Source: a virus
Direction: 5' to 3' (one strand)
IMG/VR virus record: IMGVR_UViG_3300034198_015644
Coordinates: 42,490 to 106,489 of that record
Length of the DNA stretch: 64,000 nucleotides
The notes under the pieces are model-generated. The model worked only from the letters and a program-made list of their open reading frames with translations. It was not told where the DNA came from and made no database searches. The translations under genes were made by a program, and so were the position numbers. Below, piece by piece: positions 3,709 through 63,177 of the stretch. The stretch's first letter is position 1; the number at the start of each line of letters is the position of its first letter.

Positions 3709-4068
3709 ATGGAAATACATAAACTTCGTTGGCCACTTAATGAATGTCCCATTCCCGTTAAATTTAAAACACAAAAACCTATAATTTATCCGATCATAGA
3801 AAATTTTTATGAATTACCCGATGAACAAAAAAATGTTTTATTAGAAATAAAAAAGATAATAAATTTTTATTTACCCGATGCGAAGTTATTTTTATTTGGT
3901 TCTAGAATAAAAGGTAATTGGGATGAAAATAGTGATTATGACATAATGGTTGAAACTAAAGAAAATGGCGAAAAAAATAAAATTTTAAAAAAATACGATT
4001 TTGGGGTAAAAGTAGACATTTGTTTTACCCAAAAATACGAAGCACTAAAAAAAATTGAAATTACTTAA
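3709..4068 (+). CDS. Minimal nucleotidyltransferase (MNT, Pol-beta superfamily)
   Basis: LFLFGSRIKGNWDENSDYDIMV = GS-x10-DxD signature, followed by KVDI third Asp; 119 aa. Confidence 0.85.
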   Translation: MEIHKLRWPLNECPIPVKFKTQKPIIYPIIENFYELPDEQKNVLLEIKKIINFYLPDAKLFLFGSRIKGNWDENSDYDIMVETKENGEKNKILKKYDFGVKVDICFTQKYEALKKIEIT

Positions 4069-4098
4069 AAAATAAAAAATAATTTGAAAAAAACTTCA

Positions 4099-4121
4099 AA
4101 AACAAAATAATTATTTTAAAA
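4099..4121 (+). promoter_or_regulatory. 23-bp element aaaacaaaataattattttaaaa (copy 1) containing palindrome aaaataattatttt
   Basis: Identical 23-mer ends 8 nt before this ATG and 7 nt before the ATG at 16578. Confidence 0.55.
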
Positions 4122-4129
4122 TTGACATA

Positions 4130-7100
4130 ATGGCGTTCCCAATATTAAGAGATCCTGAAGTAATACATTTATTTGTAGATAAGTTCCCAACTTTATTGAG
4201 TGGTCCGTCTAGTGCAATTACAGAATTTTATAGTTTTTGTGTAAAAAATGGAGTAAATGAACTTTCATTATATGACACATTAAGTGTTTTACCAAGTTCA
4301 ACAAACTCAGTTAGTAATTTTATTTATAGTGCAAAAACTTTTAATTACGTATGTGAAGTTGGCGGAACCGTAAATCCTTATGATCCTGCAACATTAGGAT
4401 TAAAATATTTAAACTTAATTACTACCTACAATAATGGACAACCAAATCTATCAAGAAAATACGATAGGATAACTATTGAGAATGAATTTTGGAACTTAGA
4501 GACAAGTATTAATCCATTAAAAAATACTGCAGGATTTACCATATCAACAATTGCGGGAAATACTGTGGCATCCATAGCAGGGGGAATACCCTCATCAATT
4601 TTTGTTGTGGGAAATATGGTTAAAGTTTTTGGTGAATATAGACAAGTCTTAGCAATTGGGGCGACAACAATAACTGTTGATAGAGGATTTACTAATACAG
4701 TAACAAATCAAACTTTTGAAATTAGAGATAATAAAGTTTCGGGGGCAGAAACATATGCAATTGATTTTGAAACATATTTGTTGCGTTTAAAAAATATTAG
4801 AAATGTTGCAGTTGCAAATAATTTAAAAATAGATGCATATCTTTCAAGAAGAGTAACACAAGTACAATTTTTAAAATTAATTCCATTTATTGACAGAATT
4901 TTAATTGAGGCAGATTACGATCAAAATAATTATTTACTATATAACGACCCAACACAATTAAATAAAATACGAGATGTTTTAATTAGATGTAGTCAAAATA
5001 GAACAGGTACTGTCAATATCAATGTTGGTAACAATAATATGCAAGGTATTGGGACTGACTTTACCAATGAGTTGGGAGTTGGTACAAAGATTTACGTTAG
5101 TGGACAAGTTTTTACAATACAATCTATTGTAAGCTCAACGCAGGCAACTTTATTGGAAACTAACAATAGTAGTACAATTAATAATGCAACTTTTAAAACT
5201 TATACAGAATTTGCCCCAATATTCTATATCAACAAGACATTAAGAAAAACTTGGTTAACCACACCTGTTAGTACTAAAAGTTATGCTGATGTTTTTAAAA
5301 TGTTTACACTTAGTGGTTATACAGTAGGAGGATCAGTACAATCAGGTAGTAACCCAATTTGTTATAATTTGGAAGACAACCCATCAATAACTGGTGCGAC
5401 TAATTTGATTGGCATATCAATATTTGATAGAACTGAGGCACAATCTATAGACATAAAAGTTGCACAATCTTCTTCACCAAGATCAAGTTGTACCAATCCT
5501 TTGGCTAGATCTATTGGTGCTAACAATACTTATGCAATAACTTTTCAAGGAAATGATTGTACCTGTGATAATGCGACAAATGGATCAGTAACTGCGAATT
5601 TTAGTACAATACAACCTACCCCATACAACTATACATTTACAAATGGTGGTAGAGTAATTGAGATTACAAATTTAACTACACCACCACCATATACGTTTAG
5701 TGGTCTAGGTTTAGGTACTTGGAACATATCAGTAAGAGATGGTAATAATAGTGTTTCAACAGGTAGTGTCACAATAAATGAATCATTTCAACCAACCATT
5801 ACAGGTAATTATATAAGTGCAGGTCAAGGCGGAATTACAGTATTCTATACGGGAGGTTATAACAACTACTATATTTCAAGAATAGATAACCCAACAAATA
5901 TAAACAATCAATGGGGACCTTTTATTTCATATCACAATGCAGGTAGTGATCCATTTTTTGATTCTAACATAACAGTTAATAATACAACAAAATCATATAA
6001 TTCATCATCTACTCCTGCGTATAATTTTGTACCAAATCAAAGTTATAGTTTTGTTATTGGAGATACAGATGCATGTATTAAAATTTTTACTGTAACAATA
6101 CCTCAAGCGTCAACGGGACCTTCAGTAAATATTACTCAAACTACCAATCCATCTTGTGATGCAGCATCAAACGGTTCTATAACTATGGTTGCAGCAGGCA
6201 CAGGACCTTACGTATTTCATGTAACATATCCAAATGGAAATACAAGTAACATAAATAGTGTGAGTACTACACAAGTATTAAATAATTTATCGGCAGGAAA
6301 TTACTCAGTAACAGTAACAGATGCAAATAATGTTACATCTACCCCTGCGGTTACTACAACTTTAACTAATACATATAATTCAAATATAAATGCAACTAGT
6401 ACATCACCTAATCAAGTGTGTTTTCAATTAGTCGCAGGATCAACATATACTATAACATCAGGAGGGGGAACATTCCAATCATTTAATCAAACAGTAAGTG
6501 GACCTAACTTTACCCCATGTTTTAATAATTTACCAGGAGGACAATATAACTTTAATGTTTTATCTTCTAATGGTTGTTCAGAAACAATTTATTTAACAGT
6601 TAATAGTGCAACATTAACATTATCATTAAATCAATACGAAAATCCAAGTTGTACACAAGTTAATGATGGAATTATTAATGTATTTGCGACAAGTAATGGT
6701 AATGGACAATTTTCTTATTCCGCATCAAATGGTAGTGTAATTTATAGCAACAATAGTGGTAATTTTACTAATTTGAGTGCCGGTACTTGGACATTATCAG
6801 TTAGTCAAAATGGAATTTTGGGGAATAATATTGTAGTGCAATTAAATAATTCATTTTATGTTAATGTGACTAGTACAGGTGAAACTGTATGTGTTAGTGC
6901 GAGTGGTGGTTCATTAGGTATTTATACTGTAGATATTAACGGTACGTTACACACCTATAACACCGCATCCACAATAAATTGTTATACTGGTCTTTGTTCG
7001 GGAAATGTTGTCAGAGTTGTTGATGGTGACATTATAAACACTTCAATATCAGGTTGTGTATACACCACAACAACACCTAAAGATTGTGCATTTAATTTTA

Positions 7101-56020: not shown

Positions 56021-56052
56021 CTTGTTTTAGTGGAAAATATTTTATACTTTTG
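56021..56052 (+). promoter_or_regulatory. Bacteroidota-type promoter for the TROVE/vWA gene
   Basis: cTTG (56021-24), N20, TACTTTTG (56045-52). Confidence 0.7.
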
Positions 56053-56072
56053 TAATTCTAATCTTAATTACT

Positions 56073-57479
56073 ATGGACTTCATTCAATCTCTACAGACCA
56101 AAGATACCGTAACTGAAAATGGTATACCTACTAATAGTACTTCTATGGATCGTTGTGTTGATCTATTTTTTATGATTGGTGCAGTTAGAGGTCAACATAG
56201 TGAACGAATTTTAAAATTATTTATAAGGGCATTCTATGAAAATAGAACTGCAGCTCTTCGTATTTTATTTTGGGCTCGTGATGTTAGAGATGGGGCTGGA
56301 GAGAGAAGTACATTTAGAATTATTTTTAAATGGTTATGTGATAATCATCCTGAAACTGTAATTAAAAATTTAAGTTATGTTTCATATCTTGGTCGTTGGG
56401 ATGACATGTTGGTTGCAATTGGTACAAAATGTGAAGATGCAGTTTTTGAGGAAATAAAAAATGGATTAGAAGATGGTAACCAACTCTGTGCTAAATGGAT
56501 GCCACGTAAAGGTAAAATTGCCAACATTCTTCGAAAAAAGTTTAAGATGACCCCAAAGGAATATCGTAAACTTTTAGTTTCTAATACTAATGTTGTGGAG
56601 ACTAAAATGTGTGATAAGAAATGGTCAGAGATTGAATATGGTAAATTACCTAGTCTTGCCATGTCACGTTATAGTACTGCCTTTAAAATTAAAGATAGTG
56701 TAAGATTTAATACTTATCTTAATGATTTAAAAAATGGTAAGGGTAAAGTAAATGCAGGTGCAGTATATCCTTACGATATAATTAAAAATTTACGTAGAGG
56801 TAATTCTGATTTGGCACAAGAACAATGGAATGTTCTTCCTGATTATATGGCGGAGTGTCACGATTTGGTGTTTCCATTGGTAGATGTATCGGCTAGTATG
56901 GATACACCAATTGGAAGTAATTCAAATCTTACGGCAATAGATGTCGCAATTTCATTGGGTCTTTATATTAGTGAAAGAAATGTCGGACCTTTGAAAGATT
57001 ATTTTATGACTTTCTCTCAAAGTCCTGAGTTGGTATACGTTAACGGTTCATTAGAAGATAGAATGTACCAAATGGAGTGTACACATTGGGGGATGAATAC
57101 TAATTTGATAAAAGTGTTTCAGACCATGTTAAAACACGCCAAAGAGAATAATGTTCGTGCTTGTGATATGCCAACTAAAATTTTAATCCTTAGTGATATG
57201 GAATTTGATATGGCAATCAATAATTCTAAAAATAGTGCAATGGAAGAGATTGAAAATCTTTACCGTGAAAATAATTATACGTTACCTAAAATTGTATTTT
57301 GGAATATTCAGGCAAGAGGTAAAAATTTTCCTGTCACTTTTGATAAAAATGGAACTGCACTTGTATCTGGATTTTCTCCATCAATTCTAAAATCAATACT
57401 TAAAATGGATGTTGCAAATCCACATAGAGTTATGTTAGATACAATTAATGATTACAAATATTTGGGTATTAAACCATAA
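56073..57479 (+). CDS. DUF2828-family TROVE/Ro60-like protein with C-terminal vWA domain
   Basis: TENG, RD.R.G.GER..F, G.WDD, AKWMPR helical region; vWA MIDAS DVSAS, WGMNTN, ILILSDMEFD, VFWN, VSGFS. Confidence 0.85.
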   Translation: MDFIQSLQTKDTVTENGIPTNSTSMDRCVDLFFMIGAVRGQHSERILKLFIRAFYENRTAALRILFWARDVRDGAGERSTFRIIFKWLCDNHPETVIKNLSYVSYLGRWDDMLVAIGTKCEDAVFEEIKNGLEDGNQLCAKWMPRKGKIANILRKKFKMTPKEYRKLLVSNTNVVETKMCDKKWSEIEYGKLPSLAMSRYSTAFKIKDSVRFNTYLNDLKNGKGKVNAGAVYPYDIIKNLRRGNSDLAQEQWNVLPDYMAECHDLVFPLVDVSASMDTPIGSNSNLTAIDVAISLGLYISERNVGPLKDYFMTFSQSPELVYVNGSLEDRMYQMECTHWGMNTNLIKVFQTMLKHAKENNVRACDMPTKILILSDMEFDMAINNSKNSAMEEIENLYRENNYTLPKIVFWNIQARGKNFPVTFDKNGTALVSGFSPSILKSILKMDVANPHRVMLDTINDYKYLGIKP

Positions 57480-57496
57480 AAATATTTTTAAAAAGC

Positions 57497-57528
57497 CTTG
57501 TATATTTGAAAAAATATATTTATCTTTG
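57497..57528 (+). promoter_or_regulatory. Bacteroidota-type promoter driving the intergenic RNA
   Basis: cTTG (57497-500), N20, TATCTTTG (57521-28); next annotated ORF is ~200 nt away and behind a terminator. Confidence 0.75.
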
Positions 57529-57529
57529 T

Positions 57530-57670
57530 AATGTTGTTTGAGGGATGATTTCAGCAAAATTTAAACTTAAATGTAAACTGGAAAACAACATGTGAGTTTA
57601 TCTGGTACTCACGATAATATTGATATCGATGTTATCATTAAAAACGGAAACCTCCATCCTGTACAACATT
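57530..57670 (+). ncRNA. Candidate structured ncRNA (Y-RNA-like/Ro-associated)
   Basis: 5'/3' closing helix aatgttgt/acaacatt plus gggatg/catcct; internal arms tttcag/ctggaa, gtgagt/actcac and gataatattg/cgatgttatc; flanked by a promoter and a terminator. Confidence 0.65.
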
Positions 57671-57672
57671 AT

Positions 57673-57708
57673 GAACCTGTAAATAACCTTTACAGGTTTA
57701 TTTTTTTT
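57673..57708 (+). terminator. Intrinsic terminator
   Basis: gaacctgtaaa-taacc-tttacaggttt stem-loop followed by a and T8. Confidence 0.85.
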
Positions 57709-57734
57709 ATTATATTTAATAAAAAAGAATTATT

Positions 57735-58028
57735 ATGGAAACAGAAAAAGAACCACTTATTTTAGTATTTTACATCTATAGAGATGTATTGGCACAAAAA
57801 GACATCAGAGATGAATATATCAATGGAGTTAAAAAACACTTTGAAGATATAAAAATAAAGGCAACATTTTTCTTTTTACCCACAGATACTGAAGAAAGAA
57901 TTGAATGCTTAAATCCTAGATTTATTGAAGATCAGAATGAGGTTGAAAAACTTAAAAGAATTTTAGAGGACGTAGAAAAACGTTTTGAAATTGATACTAA
58001 GTCTACTGATAATGTGGATGAAGATTGA
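57735..58028 (+). CDS. Hypothetical protein
   Basis: 97-aa ORF. Confidence 0.55.
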   Translation: METEKEPLILVFYIYRDVLAQKDIRDEYINGVKKHFEDIKIKATFFFLPTDTEERIECLNPRFIEDQNEVEKLKRILEDVEKRFEIDTKSTDNVDED

Positions 58029-58029
58029 T

Positions 58030-58677
58030 TTAAGGTCTTGTAGAGTTACGATAAAGACGGGATGGTTTCCATCCCGTTTTTTTTAACACTTCATTGTATA
58101 TTCTTTTTCTATTTTCTTTTTTTAATTCGTTCATAAAAATTGCCCGTTTAATTTTATTAACTTTAAAAAAATCTAATATAGTGTCGTGTAATAATCTAGC
58201 TTCTTTTTTATTTTTACAAGTTACAATATTTAAATTATCATAATCTTCAACTACCAATTTGTTAAGAAAATAAAATACATATTTAATTTTATTATTATTT
58301 AATAATAATTTTTTAATGATTTCTTTAAATGTCAATCTACCTTTAAAACCATGAACTTGGAATGTTTCCTCTATTTCAAAATCATTTTTATTCAATATTG
58401 TATATCTTTCATCTTTAAATTTTTCTTTTATTAAACGACCTAAACTATCTCTTACAATTTTTTCTTCATCACCATTTTCATGTTCTTTAAGTAGATATAA
58501 ATAAAATTTTAAATTCTTATGTGTGTCATTCTTATTAAGAGTTTTTTTACCAAAAAATACTACATTATTTTTTAAAATTTTTTCATATAATTTTAGTGCA
58601 GAATCCAAATTTTTACGTTTACCATATATTCTATAACTTTGACCTTCAGAATCATACACACCAATTACGTATTCCAT
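58030..58677 (-). CDS. Basic hypothetical protein
   Basis: 215-aa Lys-rich ORF. Confidence 0.55.
   Translation of the reverse strand: MEYVIGVYDSEGQSYRIYGKRKNLDSALKLYEKILKNNVVFFGKKTLNKNDTHKNLKFYLYLLKEHENGDEEKIVRDSLGRLIKEKFKDERYTILNKNDFEIEETFQVHGFKGRLTFKEIIKKLLLNNNKIKYVFYFLNKLVVEDYDNLNIVTCKNKKEARLLHDTILDFFKVNKIKRAIFMNELKKENRKRIYNEVLKKTGWKPSRLYRNSTRP
58053..58084 (+). terminator. Intrinsic terminator embedded in the antisense of the convergent gene
   Basis: acgggatgg-ttt-ccatcccgt followed by T7. Confidence 0.7.
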
Positions 58678-58728: not shown

Positions 58729-59745
58729 ATGAAAGATTTATATGAAATTTTGGGTGTAAGTAGGGATGCTTCTGCGGAGGATATTAAAAAGGCGTATAAA
58801 AAATTGGCAATACAATATCACCCAGATAAGAATCCTGGTAATAAAGAGGCTGAGGAAAAAATGAAAGATATAAATCATGCCTATAGTACACTTTCTGATG
58901 AAGAAAGTAAGCGAAAATATGATATGGGTGGATCCGATATGGGTCACGGTGGATTTGGTTTTGGTTTTGATCCATTTGATATTGCTTCAAGGATGGCGGG
59001 TTTTGGTTTTGGGGGTAGACGAAGAGGTCAACAAAAAGGAAGAGATATTAAAATAGAACTCGCAATTACTTTAGAGGAGATATACAGAGGTGTTAGTAAA
59101 AAAATAAGATTTAATCATTCTGTCGGATGTAATACTTGTTCAGGTACTGGAGGAAAAGAAACTAACTGTGAAGTATGTAAAGGGCAAGGAGTTATGACAC
59201 AAATTATTGATACCCAAATGGGTAGAATGATGAATCAAAGAATTTGTGGTAGTTGTAATGGATCGGGTAAAATAATTACTGACCCTTGTAAAAAATGTAA
59301 TGGTATTGGTAGTGAAGTAAAATCTGAAGTGATAGATATTAACATACCTCAAGGATGTGAAAATGGTCATACTTTTATAGTTAAAGGAGGTGGGGACTTC
59401 ATGAAAAATGGTGTATCAGGTGATTTATATGTTGTAATTTCTGAAATTCCTGACATAACCACCCAACGGCAAGGCAATGATTTAATTAAAAAAATAACTT
59501 TATCGTATATTGATTTTATTATTGGTAATGAGTATATTTTAGAAACTTTTGATGGTAAAATAAAAATTAACATTCCTGAATTGTCTGAAGTTGGAGATAA
59601 TCTTAGGATAAAAGGAAAAGGATTTAAACGAAATGGGTTAGTTGGTGATATGATAATAATATTAGAACTAACATTACCTAAACAAATAAATGAAAAAGAA
59701 AAAGAATTATTAACAGAAATTAAAAATTTAAAAAAACAACTATGA
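58729..59745 (+). CDS. dnaJ: Full-length DnaJ co-chaperone
   Basis: J domain with HPD, G/F-rich linker, four CxxCxGxG repeats, C-terminal domain. Confidence 0.95.
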   Translation: MKDLYEILGVSRDASAEDIKKAYKKLAIQYHPDKNPGNKEAEEKMKDINHAYSTLSDEESKRKYDMGGSDMGHGGFGFGFDPFDIASRMAGFGFGGRRRGQQKGRDIKIELAITLEEIYRGVSKKIRFNHSVGCNTCSGTGGKETNCEVCKGQGVMTQIIDTQMGRMMNQRICGSCNGSGKIITDPCKKCNGIGSEVKSEVIDINIPQGCENGHTFIVKGGGDFMKNGVSGDLYVVISEIPDITTQRQGNDLIKKITLSYIDFIIGNEYILETFDGKIKINIPELSEVGDNLRIKGKGFKRNGLVGDMIIILELTLPKQINEKEKELLTEIKNLKKQL

Positions 59746-60152
59746 AATTAGACGGAGTATTAAAAGAAACAGAAGATTTGTTCAAGAAAGTTCTTGAAGA
59801 AACTAGTGTACCAAGATCAATTAAATTTGAATTGATTGCCGCCAATGATATGAAAGAAATTGGTAAAGTTGCTAAGGCAAATGAAATTTTGAAGTATATG
59901 ACTGAGATTGATATCATCATACTTTTAAATGAAAATATTTTTGATAGGTTAGCAGACGATCAAAAAGTTATGATTCTTGAAGAACTATTGGCGCAAGTAT
60001 TTTGGGATAGTAATAGTGGTAAGATTAAATTGATCAAACCAGACGTAAATACTTTTTCATTGTTGATTAAACGTTATGGTATTGATTTCTATCTTGGAGT
60101 TAAAGATAGTATTGCTTCGGTTTTGAATGAACTTGATGCAACAGGTAACTGA
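59742..60152 (+). CDS. Phage metallopeptidase-like protein lacking HExxH
   Basis: GKV.K...DIII.LN...F..L...QK..ILEELL.Q...KL..PDV..F...I.RYG layout; catalytic His residues absent. Confidence 0.5.
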   Translation: MKLDGVLKETEDLFKKVLEETSVPRSIKFELIAANDMKEIGKVAKANEILKYMTEIDIIILLNENIFDRLADDQKVMILEELLAQVFWDSNSGKIKLIKPDVNTFSLLIKRYGIDFYLGVKDSIASVLNELDATGN

Positions 60153-60363: not shown

Positions 60364-61206
60364 GTGATAAGTTATATTGGTGGTAAATCAAAAATTTCAA
60401 GTTGGATCATTCCTTTTATTCCTAAAGATATCCAAACCTATGTAGAACCTTTTGGTGGTATGTATTGGGTTTTCTTTAAAATGAATTTAAAAGAATATCC
60501 ACATCTTAATAATGTTGTGTATAATGATTTTAATCCACTTAATTCTAATCTTTTTAAATGTGTAAAAGATTATGATAGGTTACATCAAGAAATGGGTAGT
60601 TACCCTACACAAAAAATGGGAGAAGATATTGACCCTAAAGAATATGAGGAATGTTTTAAAAGATGTCAAAAAGAAGTTTTTGATCCTAACTTTGTAGTTC
60701 CTACCGATGCAAATTATGATGTTGCATGTAAATATTTATATACTTTGACACATATTTTTAGTGGAGGTAAACCTGCAACTTCAAAATTTATTTATTATCA
60801 CGGTAAATATAGAGATAAATTTTTAGTTTTTATGGATAAACTAAAAAAGAAAGAATGGACATCACATTTTGATAAAATCAATCAAGTTGAAAATTTAGAT
60901 GCATGTAGTGTTATATCGAAATACGATAATTCAAACGCATTTTTTTATCTCGACCCACCATATTTTAAAACTGAGGGATACTATTCTAATCATGAATTTG
61001 GATTAAACGACCATGAAAGATTGGCTAATTGTATGAAACAAATGAAAGGAAAATTTGCACTATCTTATTATGATTTCCCTCAATTAAGTGAATGGTTTCC
61101 TAAAGATCAATATCGTTGGGAAACAAAAGAATTCCCAAAGTCTGCTGCGGCACGTAAAGATACTGCGCAAAATAAAGGAGTTGAACTATTAATCATGAAT
61201 TATTAA
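60364..61206 (+). CDS. dam: DNA adenine methyltransferase (D12/Dam class)
   Basis: SYIGGK, YVEPFGG, VYND.N, FYLDPPY, ELLIMNY; target sequence not determinable. Confidence 0.88.
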   Translation: MISYIGGKSKISSWIIPFIPKDIQTYVEPFGGMYWVFFKMNLKEYPHLNNVVYNDFNPLNSNLFKCVKDYDRLHQEMGSYPTQKMGEDIDPKEYEECFKRCQKEVFDPNFVVPTDANYDVACKYLYTLTHIFSGGKPATSKFIYYHGKYRDKFLVFMDKLKKKEWTSHFDKINQVENLDACSVISKYDNSNAFFYLDPPYFKTEGYYSNHEFGLNDHERLANCMKQMKGKFALSYYDFPQLSEWFPKDQYRWETKEFPKSAAARKDTAQNKGVELLIMNY

Positions 61207-63050: not shown

Positions 63051-63121
63051 GCTTCTATAGTTTAACGGTAAAACTACTGATTTGTAATCAGTCATTATAG
63101 GTTCGATTCCTGTTAGAAGCT
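63051..63121 (+). tRNA. tRNA-Thr (TGT), CCA not fully encoded
   Basis: Acceptor gcttcta/tagaagc, D-arm gttt..aaac, anticodon arm actga-tttgtaa-tcagt, T-loop ggttcgattcc. Confidence 0.93.
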
Positions 63122-63177
63122 CAAGTTCAAAAATTATTTTTGGCTCTTTTTTAATAATCATAATATTTATTAAAAAA

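What the first reader, a model, noticed from the sequence alone, without database searches (positions are those of the whole stretch)
56021..57708. Phage TROVE/Ro60-like protein followed by its own promoter-to-terminator structured ncRNA: candidate new Ro/Y-like RNP
Seen: immediately after the DUF2828/vWA gene lie a host-type promoter (57497-57528), a ~140-nt ORF-free segment and a strong terminator (57673-57708). The segment's ends pair: aatgttgt 57530-37 with acaacatt 57663-70, an internal loop, then gggatg 57542-47 with catcct 57655-60. This closing helix encloses three arms: tttcag/ctggaa, gtgagt/actcac (57592-612) and a 10-bp G-U-containing hairpin (57613-636). Known: Ro60/Rsr TROVE-vWA rings bind Y RNAs whose 5' and 3' ends form a bulged stem, and these RNAs are encoded next to the protein gene. 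Inference: this is a cognate RNA of a DUF2828 protein with no obvious sequence match to the canonical Y-RNA Ro-binding stem. It could serve RNA repair or quality control, or act as a decoy against host anticodon nucleases; the phage also carries tRNA and tmRNA nearby.
Basis: partly seen in the sequence, partly recalled or inferred. Interest (0 to 1): 0.85.

Follow-up and report, generated by a model that had tools for sequence, protein, structure and literature searches.

The report
Partner RNA of phage Ro60-like protein
Right after a phage gene for a ring-shaped, Ro60-like RNA-binding protein lies a real, conserved small RNA gene whose "handle" travels with this protein gene in many very different phages, so it is most likely the protein's RNA partner, in a branch of the Ro60/Y-RNA particle that I found in no RNA catalogue or paper.

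Summary
All helices, the promoter-like site and the terminator lie at the stated coordinates. The RNA at 57530-57670 folds better than shuffles (z -4.2; -6.0 with the terminator).

A covariance model built only from other phages finds this RNA as the single significant hit in the 64-kb window (41 bits, E about 5e-6). In 85 sources (84 related loci and the window) the model gave 71 hits. All lie on the gene's strand, and 54 of 55 loci have the first hit 0-57 nt after the DUF2828 stop codon.

Both closing helices covary: 96% of cells pair against 66% when shuffled, and 12 of 12 pairs change on both sides.

The conserved handle is helix P2, then YUNCAGCAA, with CUGU after the returning strand. 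The interior varies. Relatives carry tRNA-like or YrlA-like interiors; this copy does not.

The protein is predicted (pLDDT 88) to fold like Ro60. The 12 best Foldseek hits in the PDB are Ro60/TROVE structures.

There is no Rfam match, and the YrlA binding motif GNCGAA is absent. The handle follows the same grammar as Dictyostelium Class I RNAs.

Binding and expression are untested. This scan has reported the same RNA-protein pairing before on other DNA. A tmRNA nearby was not confirmed.

The parts
56022..56052 (+). Bacteroidota-type promoter-like site before the DUF2828 gene
   Evidence: TTG-N20-TActTTTG, 21 nt before the ATG. The pattern is enriched on the + strand: 11 against 2.4 expected.
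56073..57479 (+). Gene for a 468-aa Ro60-like protein (DUF2828 N-terminal part plus a DUF7788/vWA domain with a complete MIDAS motif)
   Evidence: Pfam matches PF11443 and PF25043. PHROG 850 'RNA-binding protein', 2.9e-140. AF2 model pLDDT 88; the 12 best listed Foldseek PDB hits (ranks 1-13) are all Ro60/TROVE, E 9e-10 to 3e-6, TM 0.42-0.65. D271, S273, S275, T343 and D375 are invariant in 49 homologs.
57498..57528 (+). Promoter-like site of the RNA gene (-33 TTG at 57498-57500, -7 TAtcTTTG at 57521-57528)
   Evidence: Same pattern class as the phage's gene promoters. It ends 2 nt before P1. It is specific to this lineage: 2 of 49 distinct upstream regions have a -7 box.
57530..57670 (+). The structured RNA (P1 to P1'), a member of the CAGCAA-handle family
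   Evidence: Model R1, built without this sequence, hits exactly 57530-57670 at 41 bits, E 4.7e-6. It is the only significant hit in the window and in the 106-kb record. Fold z -4.2.
57530..57537 (+). P1, 5' strand; pairs with 57663-57670
   Evidence: In alignment A7 all 6 modelled P1 pairs change on both sides, and 93.8% of cells pair.
57538..57541 (+). 5' side of the asymmetric internal loop (UUGA); the 3' side is GU at 57661-57662
   Evidence: The same asymmetric loop is seen in relatives (AUUGA/GA, AUAA/G, ACCAA/GA).
57542..57547 (+). P2, 5' strand (GGGAUG); pairs with 57655-57660 (CAUCCU)
   Evidence: All 6 P2 pairs change on both sides, and 98.4% of cells pair.
57547..57557 (+). Conserved 11-nt motif GAUUUCAGCAA (handle)
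   Evidence: GCAA is invariant and YUNC[A/G/U]GCAA is conserved in all seed alignments. It has T3, C6, C9, A10, A11, as in the Class I RNA motif CCTTACAGCAA.
57549..57583 (+). Arm 1: UUUCAG (57549-57554) pairs with CUGGAA (57578-57583); inner hairpin 57559-57563 / 57568-57572
   Evidence: MFE fold. An equivalent arm that starts inside the motif is seen by eye in relatives (L004 TTTCGGC/GCCaGAAA, L213 TTTCAG/CTGAAA). Not tested statistically.
57592..57612 (+). Arm 2: 6-bp stem with a 9-nt loop UUAUCUGGU
   Evidence: MFE fold only. No close relative was available to test covariation.
57613..57636 (+). Arm 3: 10-bp stem with G-U pairs and a 4-nt loop
   Evidence: MFE fold only. The G-U pairs fit the + strand, and the opposite strand folds worse.
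57655..57662 (+). P2 3' strand (CAUCCU) overlapping the conserved tail CUGU (57659-57662)
   Evidence: Relatives have C-UGA, C-UGU, C-GUU or C-AGU after P2'. Class I RNAs end in CUGU.
57663..57670 (+). P1, 3' strand
57673..57709 (+). Intrinsic terminator (hairpin plus T run)
   Evidence: Terminator scan: 13 pairs, 5-nt loop, T8. A terminator follows the last RNA copy in 14 of 37 distinct related loci.

Best explanation
Positions 57530-57670 are a small non-coding RNA gene of a widespread family that I call CAGCAA-handle RNAs. I found this family in neither Rfam nor the papers searched.

How it is probably made (inferred). It is transcribed from its own Bacteroidota-type promoter (57498-57528), by read-through from the DUF2828 gene, or both. 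No terminator separates gene and RNA. Transcription ends at the intrinsic terminator (57673-57709).

Anatomy. The 5' and 3' ends pair (P1). An asymmetric internal loop leads to a second helix (P2). The 5' strand of P2 is followed directly by the conserved GAUUUCAGCAA, and its 3' strand runs into CUGU. This handle (helix plus CAGCAA motif) is the conserved part. The enclosed three-arm interior is a lineage-specific cargo.

How it probably works (inferred). The handle docks the RNA on the Ro60-like ring protein (TROVE-like repeats plus a vWA/MIDAS domain) encoded immediately upstream. This would give a Ro60/Y-RNA-type particle. As with Y RNAs, the cargo would either control access to the ring or tether another factor.

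A link to tRNA biology (inferred). In relatives the cargo is a tRNA body or the YrlA-type T arm-stem-D arm module, and the genes often lie in tRNA arrays. The particle therefore probably acts on or imitates tRNA during infection, in quality control or repair, or as bait for tRNA-directed enzymes.

Shown here: the structure, its covariation, family membership, tight linkage to the gene on the same strand across distant phages, and the predicted Ro60 fold.

Inferred only: protein-RNA binding, the transcript ends, and the biological role.
For: 1. Membership. Model R1 was built from 11 RNAs of other phages. It finds 57530-57670 as the only significant hit in the window (41 bits, E 4.7e-6; the next best has E 0.62) and in the whole 106-kb record.

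2. Linkage, gene to RNA. There were 71 hits at E <= 0.01 in 85 sources (84 viral loci and the window), all on the gene strand. The first hit starts 0-57 nt after the stop codon in 54 of 55 loci. In four whole jumbo-phage records of 232-306 kb all 6 hits are on the gene strand, 5 of them beside the gene.

3. Linkage, RNA to gene. The window's 16-mer GGGATGATTTCAGCAA has 48 exact matches in IMG/VR. Twenty-six lie in long ORFs, which I read as chance matches. Nineteen are non-coding and have CATCC[CT] downstream. Fourteen of those 19 lie 300-380 nt upstream, on the same strand, of a DUF2828 gene 41-45% identical to the window's.

4. Covariation (A7, 52 distinct rows). 96.1% of cells pair against 66.4% in shuffles (0 of 500 reach it). 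All 12 pairs change on both sides. Sliding the partner strand drops pairing to 32-49%.

5. Protein. AF2 pLDDT 88, pTM 0.89. The 12 best listed Foldseek PDB hits are Ro60/TROVE, including X. laevis Ro60 with RNA, D. radiodurans Rsr and Thermus phage phiLo Ro60. The MIDAS motif is invariant.

6. Bridge to known Y RNAs. Mycobacterium phage Whirlwind has a homolog annotated 'Ro-like RNA binding protein' (33% identical). Three CAGCAA-handle RNAs follow it. One carries a T-stem-D module that scores 38 bits (E 7.7e-6) with Rfam YrlA. The E. coli K-12 phage humlepung has four such RNAs among its tRNA genes, one with the same kind of module.

7. Distant Firmicutes-type homologs have TNCAGCAA motifs clustered just upstream of the gene, inside tRNA-shaped RNAs.
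Against: - No binding, expression or end-mapping data.
- Alignment A7 is fitted to the model's structure, which favours pairing.
- In most relatives the RNA abuts the stop codon and has no promoter of its own. It could therefore act in cis as part of the mRNA.
- Arms 2 and 3 of this copy rest on energy folding alone. No close relative was found.
- This copy's cargo shows no tRNA or YrlA likeness, so the tRNA link is borrowed from relatives.
- The protein does not match the Pfam TROVE family by sequence.
- A few handle RNAs lie kilobases from any DUF2828 gene in the DNA held.
Confidence: 0.7

Rival explanations
1. A cis-acting element of the DUF2828 mRNA. It would be a 3'-UTR structure (a 5'-UTR structure in other phages) that stabilises the message or lets the protein regulate its own synthesis. 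It would not be a separate trans-acting RNA.
For: The RNA starts 0-14 nt after the stop codon in most loci, with no room for a promoter. Only 2 of 49 distinct upstream regions have a -7 box. In the phages with upstream RNAs, the last RNA ends just before the gene's ribosome-binding site. No terminator separates gene and RNA in the window.
Against: Relatives have two to four tandem copies. Some copies lie 5 kb or more from the gene, or among tRNA genes. The window's copy has its own promoter-like site and terminator. Cargos are tRNA-like or YrlA-like, as in free Y RNAs. Dictyostelium RNAs with the same handle grammar are abundant free RNAs.
Confidence: 0.12
2. An independent small RNA whose function does not involve the neighbouring protein. 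It might be a tRNA-derived decoy or a processing signal of the phage's RNA-gene island. The linkage would then reflect shared genome neighbourhood only.
For: DUF2828 genes often lie in or beside tRNA arrays. Some handle RNAs lie away from the gene. No binding data exist.
Against: The gene-to-RNA distance is 0-57 nt in 54 of 55 loci, although gene order is otherwise mosaic. The pairing survives in phages of Bacteroidota, Proteobacteria, Actinobacteria and Firmicutes, with the RNA either upstream or downstream. The protein is predicted to have an RNA-binding Ro60 fold.
Confidence: 0.1
3. A riboswitch or attenuator leader (promoter, aptamer, terminator, then gene) that controls the downstream 97-aa ORF at 57735-58028.
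For: The order promoter, structured RNA, terminator, ORF is the classic attenuator layout. Homologs of the 97-aa ORF occur in 18 related loci.
Against: In those loci the 97-aa gene lies 400-900 nt beyond the RNA, while the RNA stays beside the DUF2828 stop codon. Most loci have other genes or tRNAs downstream. I saw no alternative pairing between P1' and the terminator. No riboswitch family matches.
Confidence: 0.03

Closest known systems
Ro60 (Rsr) with Y RNAs: bacterial and mycobacteriophage YrlA/YrlB (Chen et al. 2014, PMC4201824; Rfam RF02553), and Thermus phage phiLo Ro60 with Yrl1/Yrl2 (PMC12135203)
   Same: A ring-shaped protein of TROVE-like repeats plus a vWA/MIDAS domain (predicted fold). 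Small RNAs are encoded within a few hundred nt on the same strand, often in several copies. The RNA ends pair in a stem with an internal loop, and the interior is modular. Relatives carry the same T arm-stem-D arm tRNA mimic as YrlA.
   Different: The protein belongs to DUF2828/DUF7788, not Pfam TROVE, and is 12-16% identical to solved Ro60 structures. The RNA lacks the GNCGAAN0-1G / GGUCCGA binding motif. It gives no Rfam Y RNA or YrlA match. Its conserved element is a helix followed by YUNCAGCAA and a CUGU tail. This copy has no tRNA-like part.
Class I RNAs of dictyostelid social amoebae (Kjellin et al. 2021, PMC7919456)
   Same: The grammar is the same: a short stem, an 11-nt motif directly after its 5' strand, a variable interior, the returning strand, then a conserved tail. 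Compare DdR-28, GTTGAC-CTTACAGCAA...GTCAAC-TG, with the window, GGGATG-ATTTCAGCAA...CATCC-TGT. The nearly invariant positions T3, C6, C9, A10, A11 are met. The tail is CUGU, and its C pairs with the 5' G.
   Different: Class I RNAs are 42-65 nt, eukaryotic, driven by a DUSE promoter, and reported only in Dictyostelia. Their only known direct binder is the RRM protein Rnp1A. The phage RNA is 141 nt, has an extra outer helix P1 and a three-arm interior, and lies beside a DUF2828 gene. Common descent is not shown. I did not test whether Dictyostelium has a DUF2828 protein.
PHROG 850 / Pfam DUF2828 proteins of cultured phages (Felixounavirus, Vibrio phage nt-1, Campylobacter CP81, Listeria and Staphylococcus myoviruses, Lumosvirus mycobacteriophages such as Whirlwind)
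   Same: Full-length homologs, 28-48% identical, in 710 phage records. They are annotated 'RNA-binding protein', 'Ro-like RNA binding protein', 'vWFA protein' or 'hypothetical protein'.
   Different: In the two records I inspected no RNA partner is annotated. I found the handle RNAs in both (Whirlwind and humlepung) by reading the sequence.

Membership tests
CAGCAA-handle RNAs beside DUF2828 genes (no published name found) | Significant match to a covariance model built from other members | tested here: met
   R1, whose seeds exclude the window, hits 57530-57670 at 41 bits, E 4.7e-6, over the full model length. It is the only significant hit in 64 kb.
CAGCAA-handle RNAs beside DUF2828 genes (no published name found) | A 5-7 bp helix whose 5' strand is followed within 0-2 nt by YUNC[A/G/U]GCAA, and whose 3' strand is followed by NGU or NGA | tested here: met
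   GGGAUG, A, UUUCAGCAA ... CAUCC, UGU. The same layout appears in 54 descriptor hits, some of them chance hits inside genes.
CAGCAA-handle RNAs beside DUF2828 genes (no published name found) | Lies next to a DUF2828 gene on the same strand | tested here: met
   It starts 50 nt after the stop codon at 57479. In relatives the distance is 0-57 nt in 54 of 55 loci.
Y RNA / YrlA (Rfam RF00019, RF02553) | Match to the Rfam covariance models | tested here: not met
   No Y RNA or YrlA match, even at E <= 10, in 57400-57800, and none at the gathering score in the window.
Y RNA / YrlA (Rfam RF00019, RF02553) | Ro60-binding motif GNCGAAN0-1G (bacteria) or GGUCCGA (animals) in the terminal stem (Chen 2014) | tested here: not met
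   No GNCGAA, CGAA or GGTCCGA in 57530-57670.
Y RNA / YrlA (Rfam RF00019, RF02553) | The 5' and 3' ends form a long stem interrupted by a loop or bulge | tested here: met
   P1, an asymmetric loop (UUGA / GU), then P2. Both helices covary.
Y RNA / YrlA (Rfam RF00019, RF02553) | Encoded within 4 kb of the Ro60 gene, on the same strand | tested here: met
   50 nt downstream, same strand.
Y RNA / YrlA (Rfam RF00019, RF02553) | tRNA-like domain (T and D arms) | tested here: not met
   No tRNA or YrlA match and no GTTCRA T loop in this copy. The feature is met in relatives: Whirlwind, humlepung, L106, L125.
Ro60 / TROVE proteins | Sequence match to Pfam TROVE (PF05731) | tested here: not met
   Pfam reports only DUF2828 and DUF7788 at E <= 0.01. 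A profile search of the PDB reaches the phiLo TROVE protein only at E 0.05, in the vWA part.
Ro60 / TROVE proteins | Helical-repeat ring plus a C-terminal vWA domain (fold) | tested here: met
   For the predicted model, the 12 best listed Foldseek PDB hits are Ro60/TROVE over about 500-570 aligned columns, TM 0.42-0.65 (0.55-0.65 for nine of them), E down to 8.8e-10.
Ro60 / TROVE proteins | MIDAS motif DxSxS...T...D in the vWA domain | tested here: met
   D271, S273, S275, T343 and D375 are invariant in 49 homologs.
Ro60 / TROVE proteins | Binds Y RNA on the outer surface and misfolded RNA ends in the cavity | not testable with these tools
   There is no tool for protein-RNA complexes. Needs a gel-shift, RIP or a structure.
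Dictyostelid Class I RNAs | 11-nt motif next to the 5' stem strand, with T3, C6, C9, A10, A11 | tested here: met
   GATTTCAGCAA (57547-57557) has all five. The published motif is CCTTACAGCAA.
Dictyostelid Class I RNAs | A 6-bp stem joins the very 5' and 3' ends, and the RNA ends in CUGU | tested here: inconclusive
   P2 has 6 bp and CUGU is present at 57659-57662. But P2 is enclosed by a further helix P1, so it does not join the ends of the RNA.
Dictyostelid Class I RNAs | Length 42-65 nt; DUSE promoter; found in Dictyostelia | tested here: not met
   141 nt, a bacterial-type promoter, a phage genome.

The most novel reading that the evidence does not exclude
The helix-plus-CAGCAA handle would be the recognition element of an ancient particle built on DUF2828 proteins and shared by phages, bacteria and eukaryotes. 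The orphan Class I RNAs of Dictyostelium would be its eukaryotic members, with a DUF2828 protein as their missing partner. In phages the particle would present tRNA mimics as bait for, or a repair platform against, host tRNA-directed nucleases.
Probability: 0.12. Interest if true: 0.92.

Novelty: new variant of a known kind. Interest (0 to 1): 0.78.

Why it matters
Ro60 with its Y RNAs is a classic RNA-surveillance particle, but it is known for only one protein family and one kind of RNA docking site.

Here a second, sequence-unrelated protein family with the predicted Ro60 fold is paired with its own RNA family. That RNA family has a different, sharply defined docking handle and exchangeable interiors.

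The protein occurs in at least 710 cultured phage records, among them phages of E. coli K-12, Salmonella, Vibrio, Listeria, Staphylococcus and M. smegmatis. The idea is therefore directly testable in standard laboratory systems.

If binding is confirmed, three things follow:
- hundreds of 'hypothetical' or 'vWFA' phage genes gain a function;
- many unannotated gaps in phage tRNA regions are explained;
- the function of Dictyostelium Class I RNAs, which follow the same handle grammar and have been unexplained since 2004, gets a concrete lead.

Tried and rejected
- Rfam. At gathering scores, on the window and on 20 related loci, it returned only tRNA and tmRNA. At E <= 10 on the RNA itself it returned only terminator-driven chance matches: ncr1015, trpB and manA-II.

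- Riboswitch reading. Rejected because the RNA stays with the DUF2828 stop codon, not with the downstream gene.

- MAFFT alignments of whole RNAs (A2, A3, A5). They put P1, and the 3' ends of short copies, out of register. I therefore used a seed of 11 RNAs with the same loop asymmetry (A6) and let the model realign the rest.

- Search for close relatives, to test arms 2 and 3. I used the exact 16-mer. No phage shares this interior, so those arms stay untested. The search did serve as an unbiased linkage test.

- Further copies. None were found in the window or in the 106-kb record.

- tRNA likeness of this copy's interior. Not found.

- Papers not held. The supplementary phage list of Chen et al. 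2014 is not held, and Avesson et al. 2011, on the proteins pulled down with a Class I RNA, is not in the library. So I could not check two things: whether DUF2828-type phages were among their 22 phages, and whether a DUF2828 protein was among the four pulled-down proteins.

- Dictyostelium. Whether it encodes a DUF2828 protein was not tested. The protein atlas shows eukaryotic members but names only Mucoromycota.
Full report
**What is there.** The gene at 56073-57479 encodes a 468-aa protein. It matches DUF2828 (1.7e-40) and DUF7788 (3.8e-47) and PHROG 850, 'RNA-binding protein' (2.9e-140). The 255-nt gap that follows holds no ATG ORF longer than 23 aa. The minimum-free-energy fold of 57530-57670 reproduces them exactly: P1, a loop, P2 and three arms (-35.9 kcal/mol, z -4.21). 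With the terminator the z-score is -6.0. The opposite strand folds worse (z -1.95). The terminator at 57673-57709 is found by the scan.

**Promoter.** The 'host-type promoter' is a Bacteroidota-type TTG-N20-TAtcTTTG at 57498-57528. This pattern occurs 11 times on the + strand of the window, twice on the - strand, and 2.4 times in shuffles. Nine of the 11 lie outside long ORFs; for seven of these an ORF starts within 64 nt, as for the copy in front of the DUF2828 gene. The motif ends 2 nt before P1. A transcript starting there would begin with P1.

**The RNA is conserved beside homologous genes.** I fetched 16, then 80 viral loci and 80 genome loci that encode homologs. Downstream of the stop codon, several lineages share GGRAWN-(A/AC)-UUNC[A/G/U]GCAA near the 5' end and the complementary strand plus UGA/UGU/GAU near the 3' end. 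These are enclosed by an outer helix whose sequence differs completely between lineages.

**Model and search.** I built a covariance model (R1) from 11 such RNAs, none from this window. Only P1 and P2 were given as structure.
- R1 finds 57530-57670 at 41 bits, E 4.7e-6. This is the only significant hit in the window (next best E 0.62) and in the whole 106-kb virus record.
- In 85 sources (84 viral loci and the window) it gives 71 hits at E <= 0.01, all on the gene's strand.
- The first hit starts 0-57 nt after the stop codon in 54 of 55 loci.
- Eleven loci have two or three copies.

**Covariation.** On the resulting alignment 96.1% of cells pair, against 66.4% after shuffling (0 of 500 shuffles reach it). 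All 12 pairs change on both sides. Sliding the partner strand drops pairing to 32-49%. The alignment is fitted to the model, which favours pairing. The many unrelated P1 sequences seen before any model was built show the same thing.

**Linkage tested from both sides.** In four whole jumbo-phage records of 232-306 kb, all six R1 hits are on the gene's strand, and five of them are beside the gene. Going the other way, the exact 16-mer GGGATGATTTCAGCAA from this window occurs 48 times in the viral collection.
- Twenty-six matches lie in long ORFs; I read these as chance matches.
- Nineteen are non-coding and have CATCC[CT] downstream.
- Fourteen of those 19 lie 300-380 nt upstream, on the same strand, of a DUF2828 gene only 41-45% identical to the window's.

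There the RNAs precede the gene, and their interiors are unrelated to this one. In distant Firmicutes-type homologs (33-36% identical) TNCAGCAA motifs cluster in the 500 nt before the gene. They sit inside tRNA-shaped RNAs in which a hairpin plus TACAGCAA replaces the anticodon arm.

**The handle is conserved and the interior is exchangeable.** The handle is a helix, then CAGCAA. This copy's interior has three arms, supported by folding only. It shows no likeness to tRNA or YrlA.

**The protein.** An AlphaFold2 model from 49 homologs has pLDDT 88 and pTM 0.89. The 12 best listed Foldseek matches in the PDB are all Ro60/TROVE structures: X. laevis Ro60 with RNA, human Ro60, D. radiodurans Rsr and Thermus phage phiLo Ro60. 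E-values run from 9e-10 to 3e-6 and TM scores from 0.42 to 0.65, over nearly the full length, at 12-16% identity. Isolated vWA domains follow. The MIDAS residues are invariant. By sequence the protein is not a Pfam TROVE member.

**Bridge to known Y RNAs.** Canonical bacterial and phage Y RNAs (YrlA) are defined by four features: a GNCGAAN0-1G motif in the terminal stem, T- and D-arm mimics, a location within 4 kb of the gene, and the same strand (Chen et al. 2014). The window RNA meets the location and stem features. It lacks the motif, any Rfam match and the tRNA-like part.

Two cultured phages connect the two kinds of RNA.
- Mycobacterium phage Whirlwind has a homolog annotated 'Ro-like RNA binding protein'. 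Three CAGCAA-handle RNAs follow it. The middle one carries a T arm-stem-D arm module that scores 38 bits (E 7.7e-6, below the gathering score) with Rfam YrlA.
- E. coli K-12 phage humlepung (Felixounavirus) has four such RNAs between its tRNA genes, one with the same kind of module.

So the same cargo as in YrlA is mounted on a different handle next to a different Ro60-like protein. This is the strongest argument that the handle is this protein's docking site.

**Class I RNAs.** I checked the source. Those RNAs have a 6-bp stem, an 11-nt motif CCTTACAGCAA directly after its 5' strand (T3, C6, C9, A10, A11 nearly invariant), a variable interior, and the end CUGU. The window has GGGAUG-AUUUCAGCAA...CAUC-CUGU, with all five positions. 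The grammar is the same. Size, the extra outer helix, the promoter and the host differ. Common descent is not shown.

**Rivals.**
- A cis-acting UTR element is the most serious rival (0.12). Most relatives have no separate promoter. Against it stand the tandem and remote copies, the tRNA-like cargos, and this copy's own promoter and terminator.
- A leader of the downstream 97-aa gene is unlikely (0.03). That gene lies 400-900 nt from the RNA in other phages, while the RNA stays at the DUF2828 stop codon.

**Limits.**
- There are no expression or binding data.
- I found no paper that describes this pairing.
- I could not read the phage list of Chen et al. 2014.
- This scan has reported the same pairing before on other DNA. 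My conclusions rest on the tests above, not on those notes.

Noticed in passing
window 58729-59745 (+): A full-length DnaJ (J domain, CXXCXGXG zinc-finger region, C-terminal domain) encoded by the phage. It is syntenic with the DUF2828 gene in seven loci (L006-L009, L062, L096, L112).
   Followed up: partly
window 57735-58028 (+) and 58030-58677 (-): A 97-aa ORF and a convergent 215-aa ORF have no Pfam or PHROG match. They are nevertheless conserved near the DUF2828 gene in 18 and 22 related loci. Function unknown.
   Followed up: partly
window, + strand: 29100, 40136, 41472, 46360, 47721, 56022, 57498, 58679, 60314, 61450, 61900: Eleven TTG-N18-20-TAnnTTTG sites (Bacteroidota-type promoter) on the + strand, against 2 on the - strand and 2.4 expected. 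Nine lie outside long ORFs and seven of those are followed by an ORF start within 64 nt. This points to a Bacteroidota host.
   Followed up: partly
window 63051-63122 (+): tRNA-Thr (UGU) is the only tRNA in the window.
   Followed up: yes
window 59742-60152 and 60364-61206 (+): A putative phage metallopeptidase (PF18894) and a D12-class N6-adenine DNA methyltransferase.
   Followed up: no
L125:1478-1593 and 1754-1872; L150:1325-1425: In Lachnospiraceae contigs, tRNA-shaped RNAs of 100-119 nt lie upstream of the DUF2828 gene. They have an acceptor stem, D arm and T arm, but a hairpin plus TACAGCAA (in L150, ACCGCAA) where the anticodon arm should be. ARAGORN does not call them; the Rfam tRNA model does.
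   Followed up: partly
L180 (Mycobacterium phage Whirlwind, KF024725.1) about 3973-4242: Three unannotated CAGCAA-handle RNAs lie in the 380-nt gap after gene 55 ('Ro-like RNA binding protein'). The middle one has a YrlA-like T-stem-D module.
   Followed up: partly
L229 (Escherichia phage humlepung, MN850564.1) about 4209-5000: Four unannotated RNAs of the form CAGAAGRCC-NNNN(A/T)CAGCAA...GGTCTGG lie between the tRNA genes after the vWFA (DUF2828) gene. The fourth carries a T arm-stem-D arm module.
   Followed up: partly
L108 and L109 (Chloroflexota contigs): The DUF2828 gene lies inside arrays of 14 and 18 tRNA genes.
   Followed up: no
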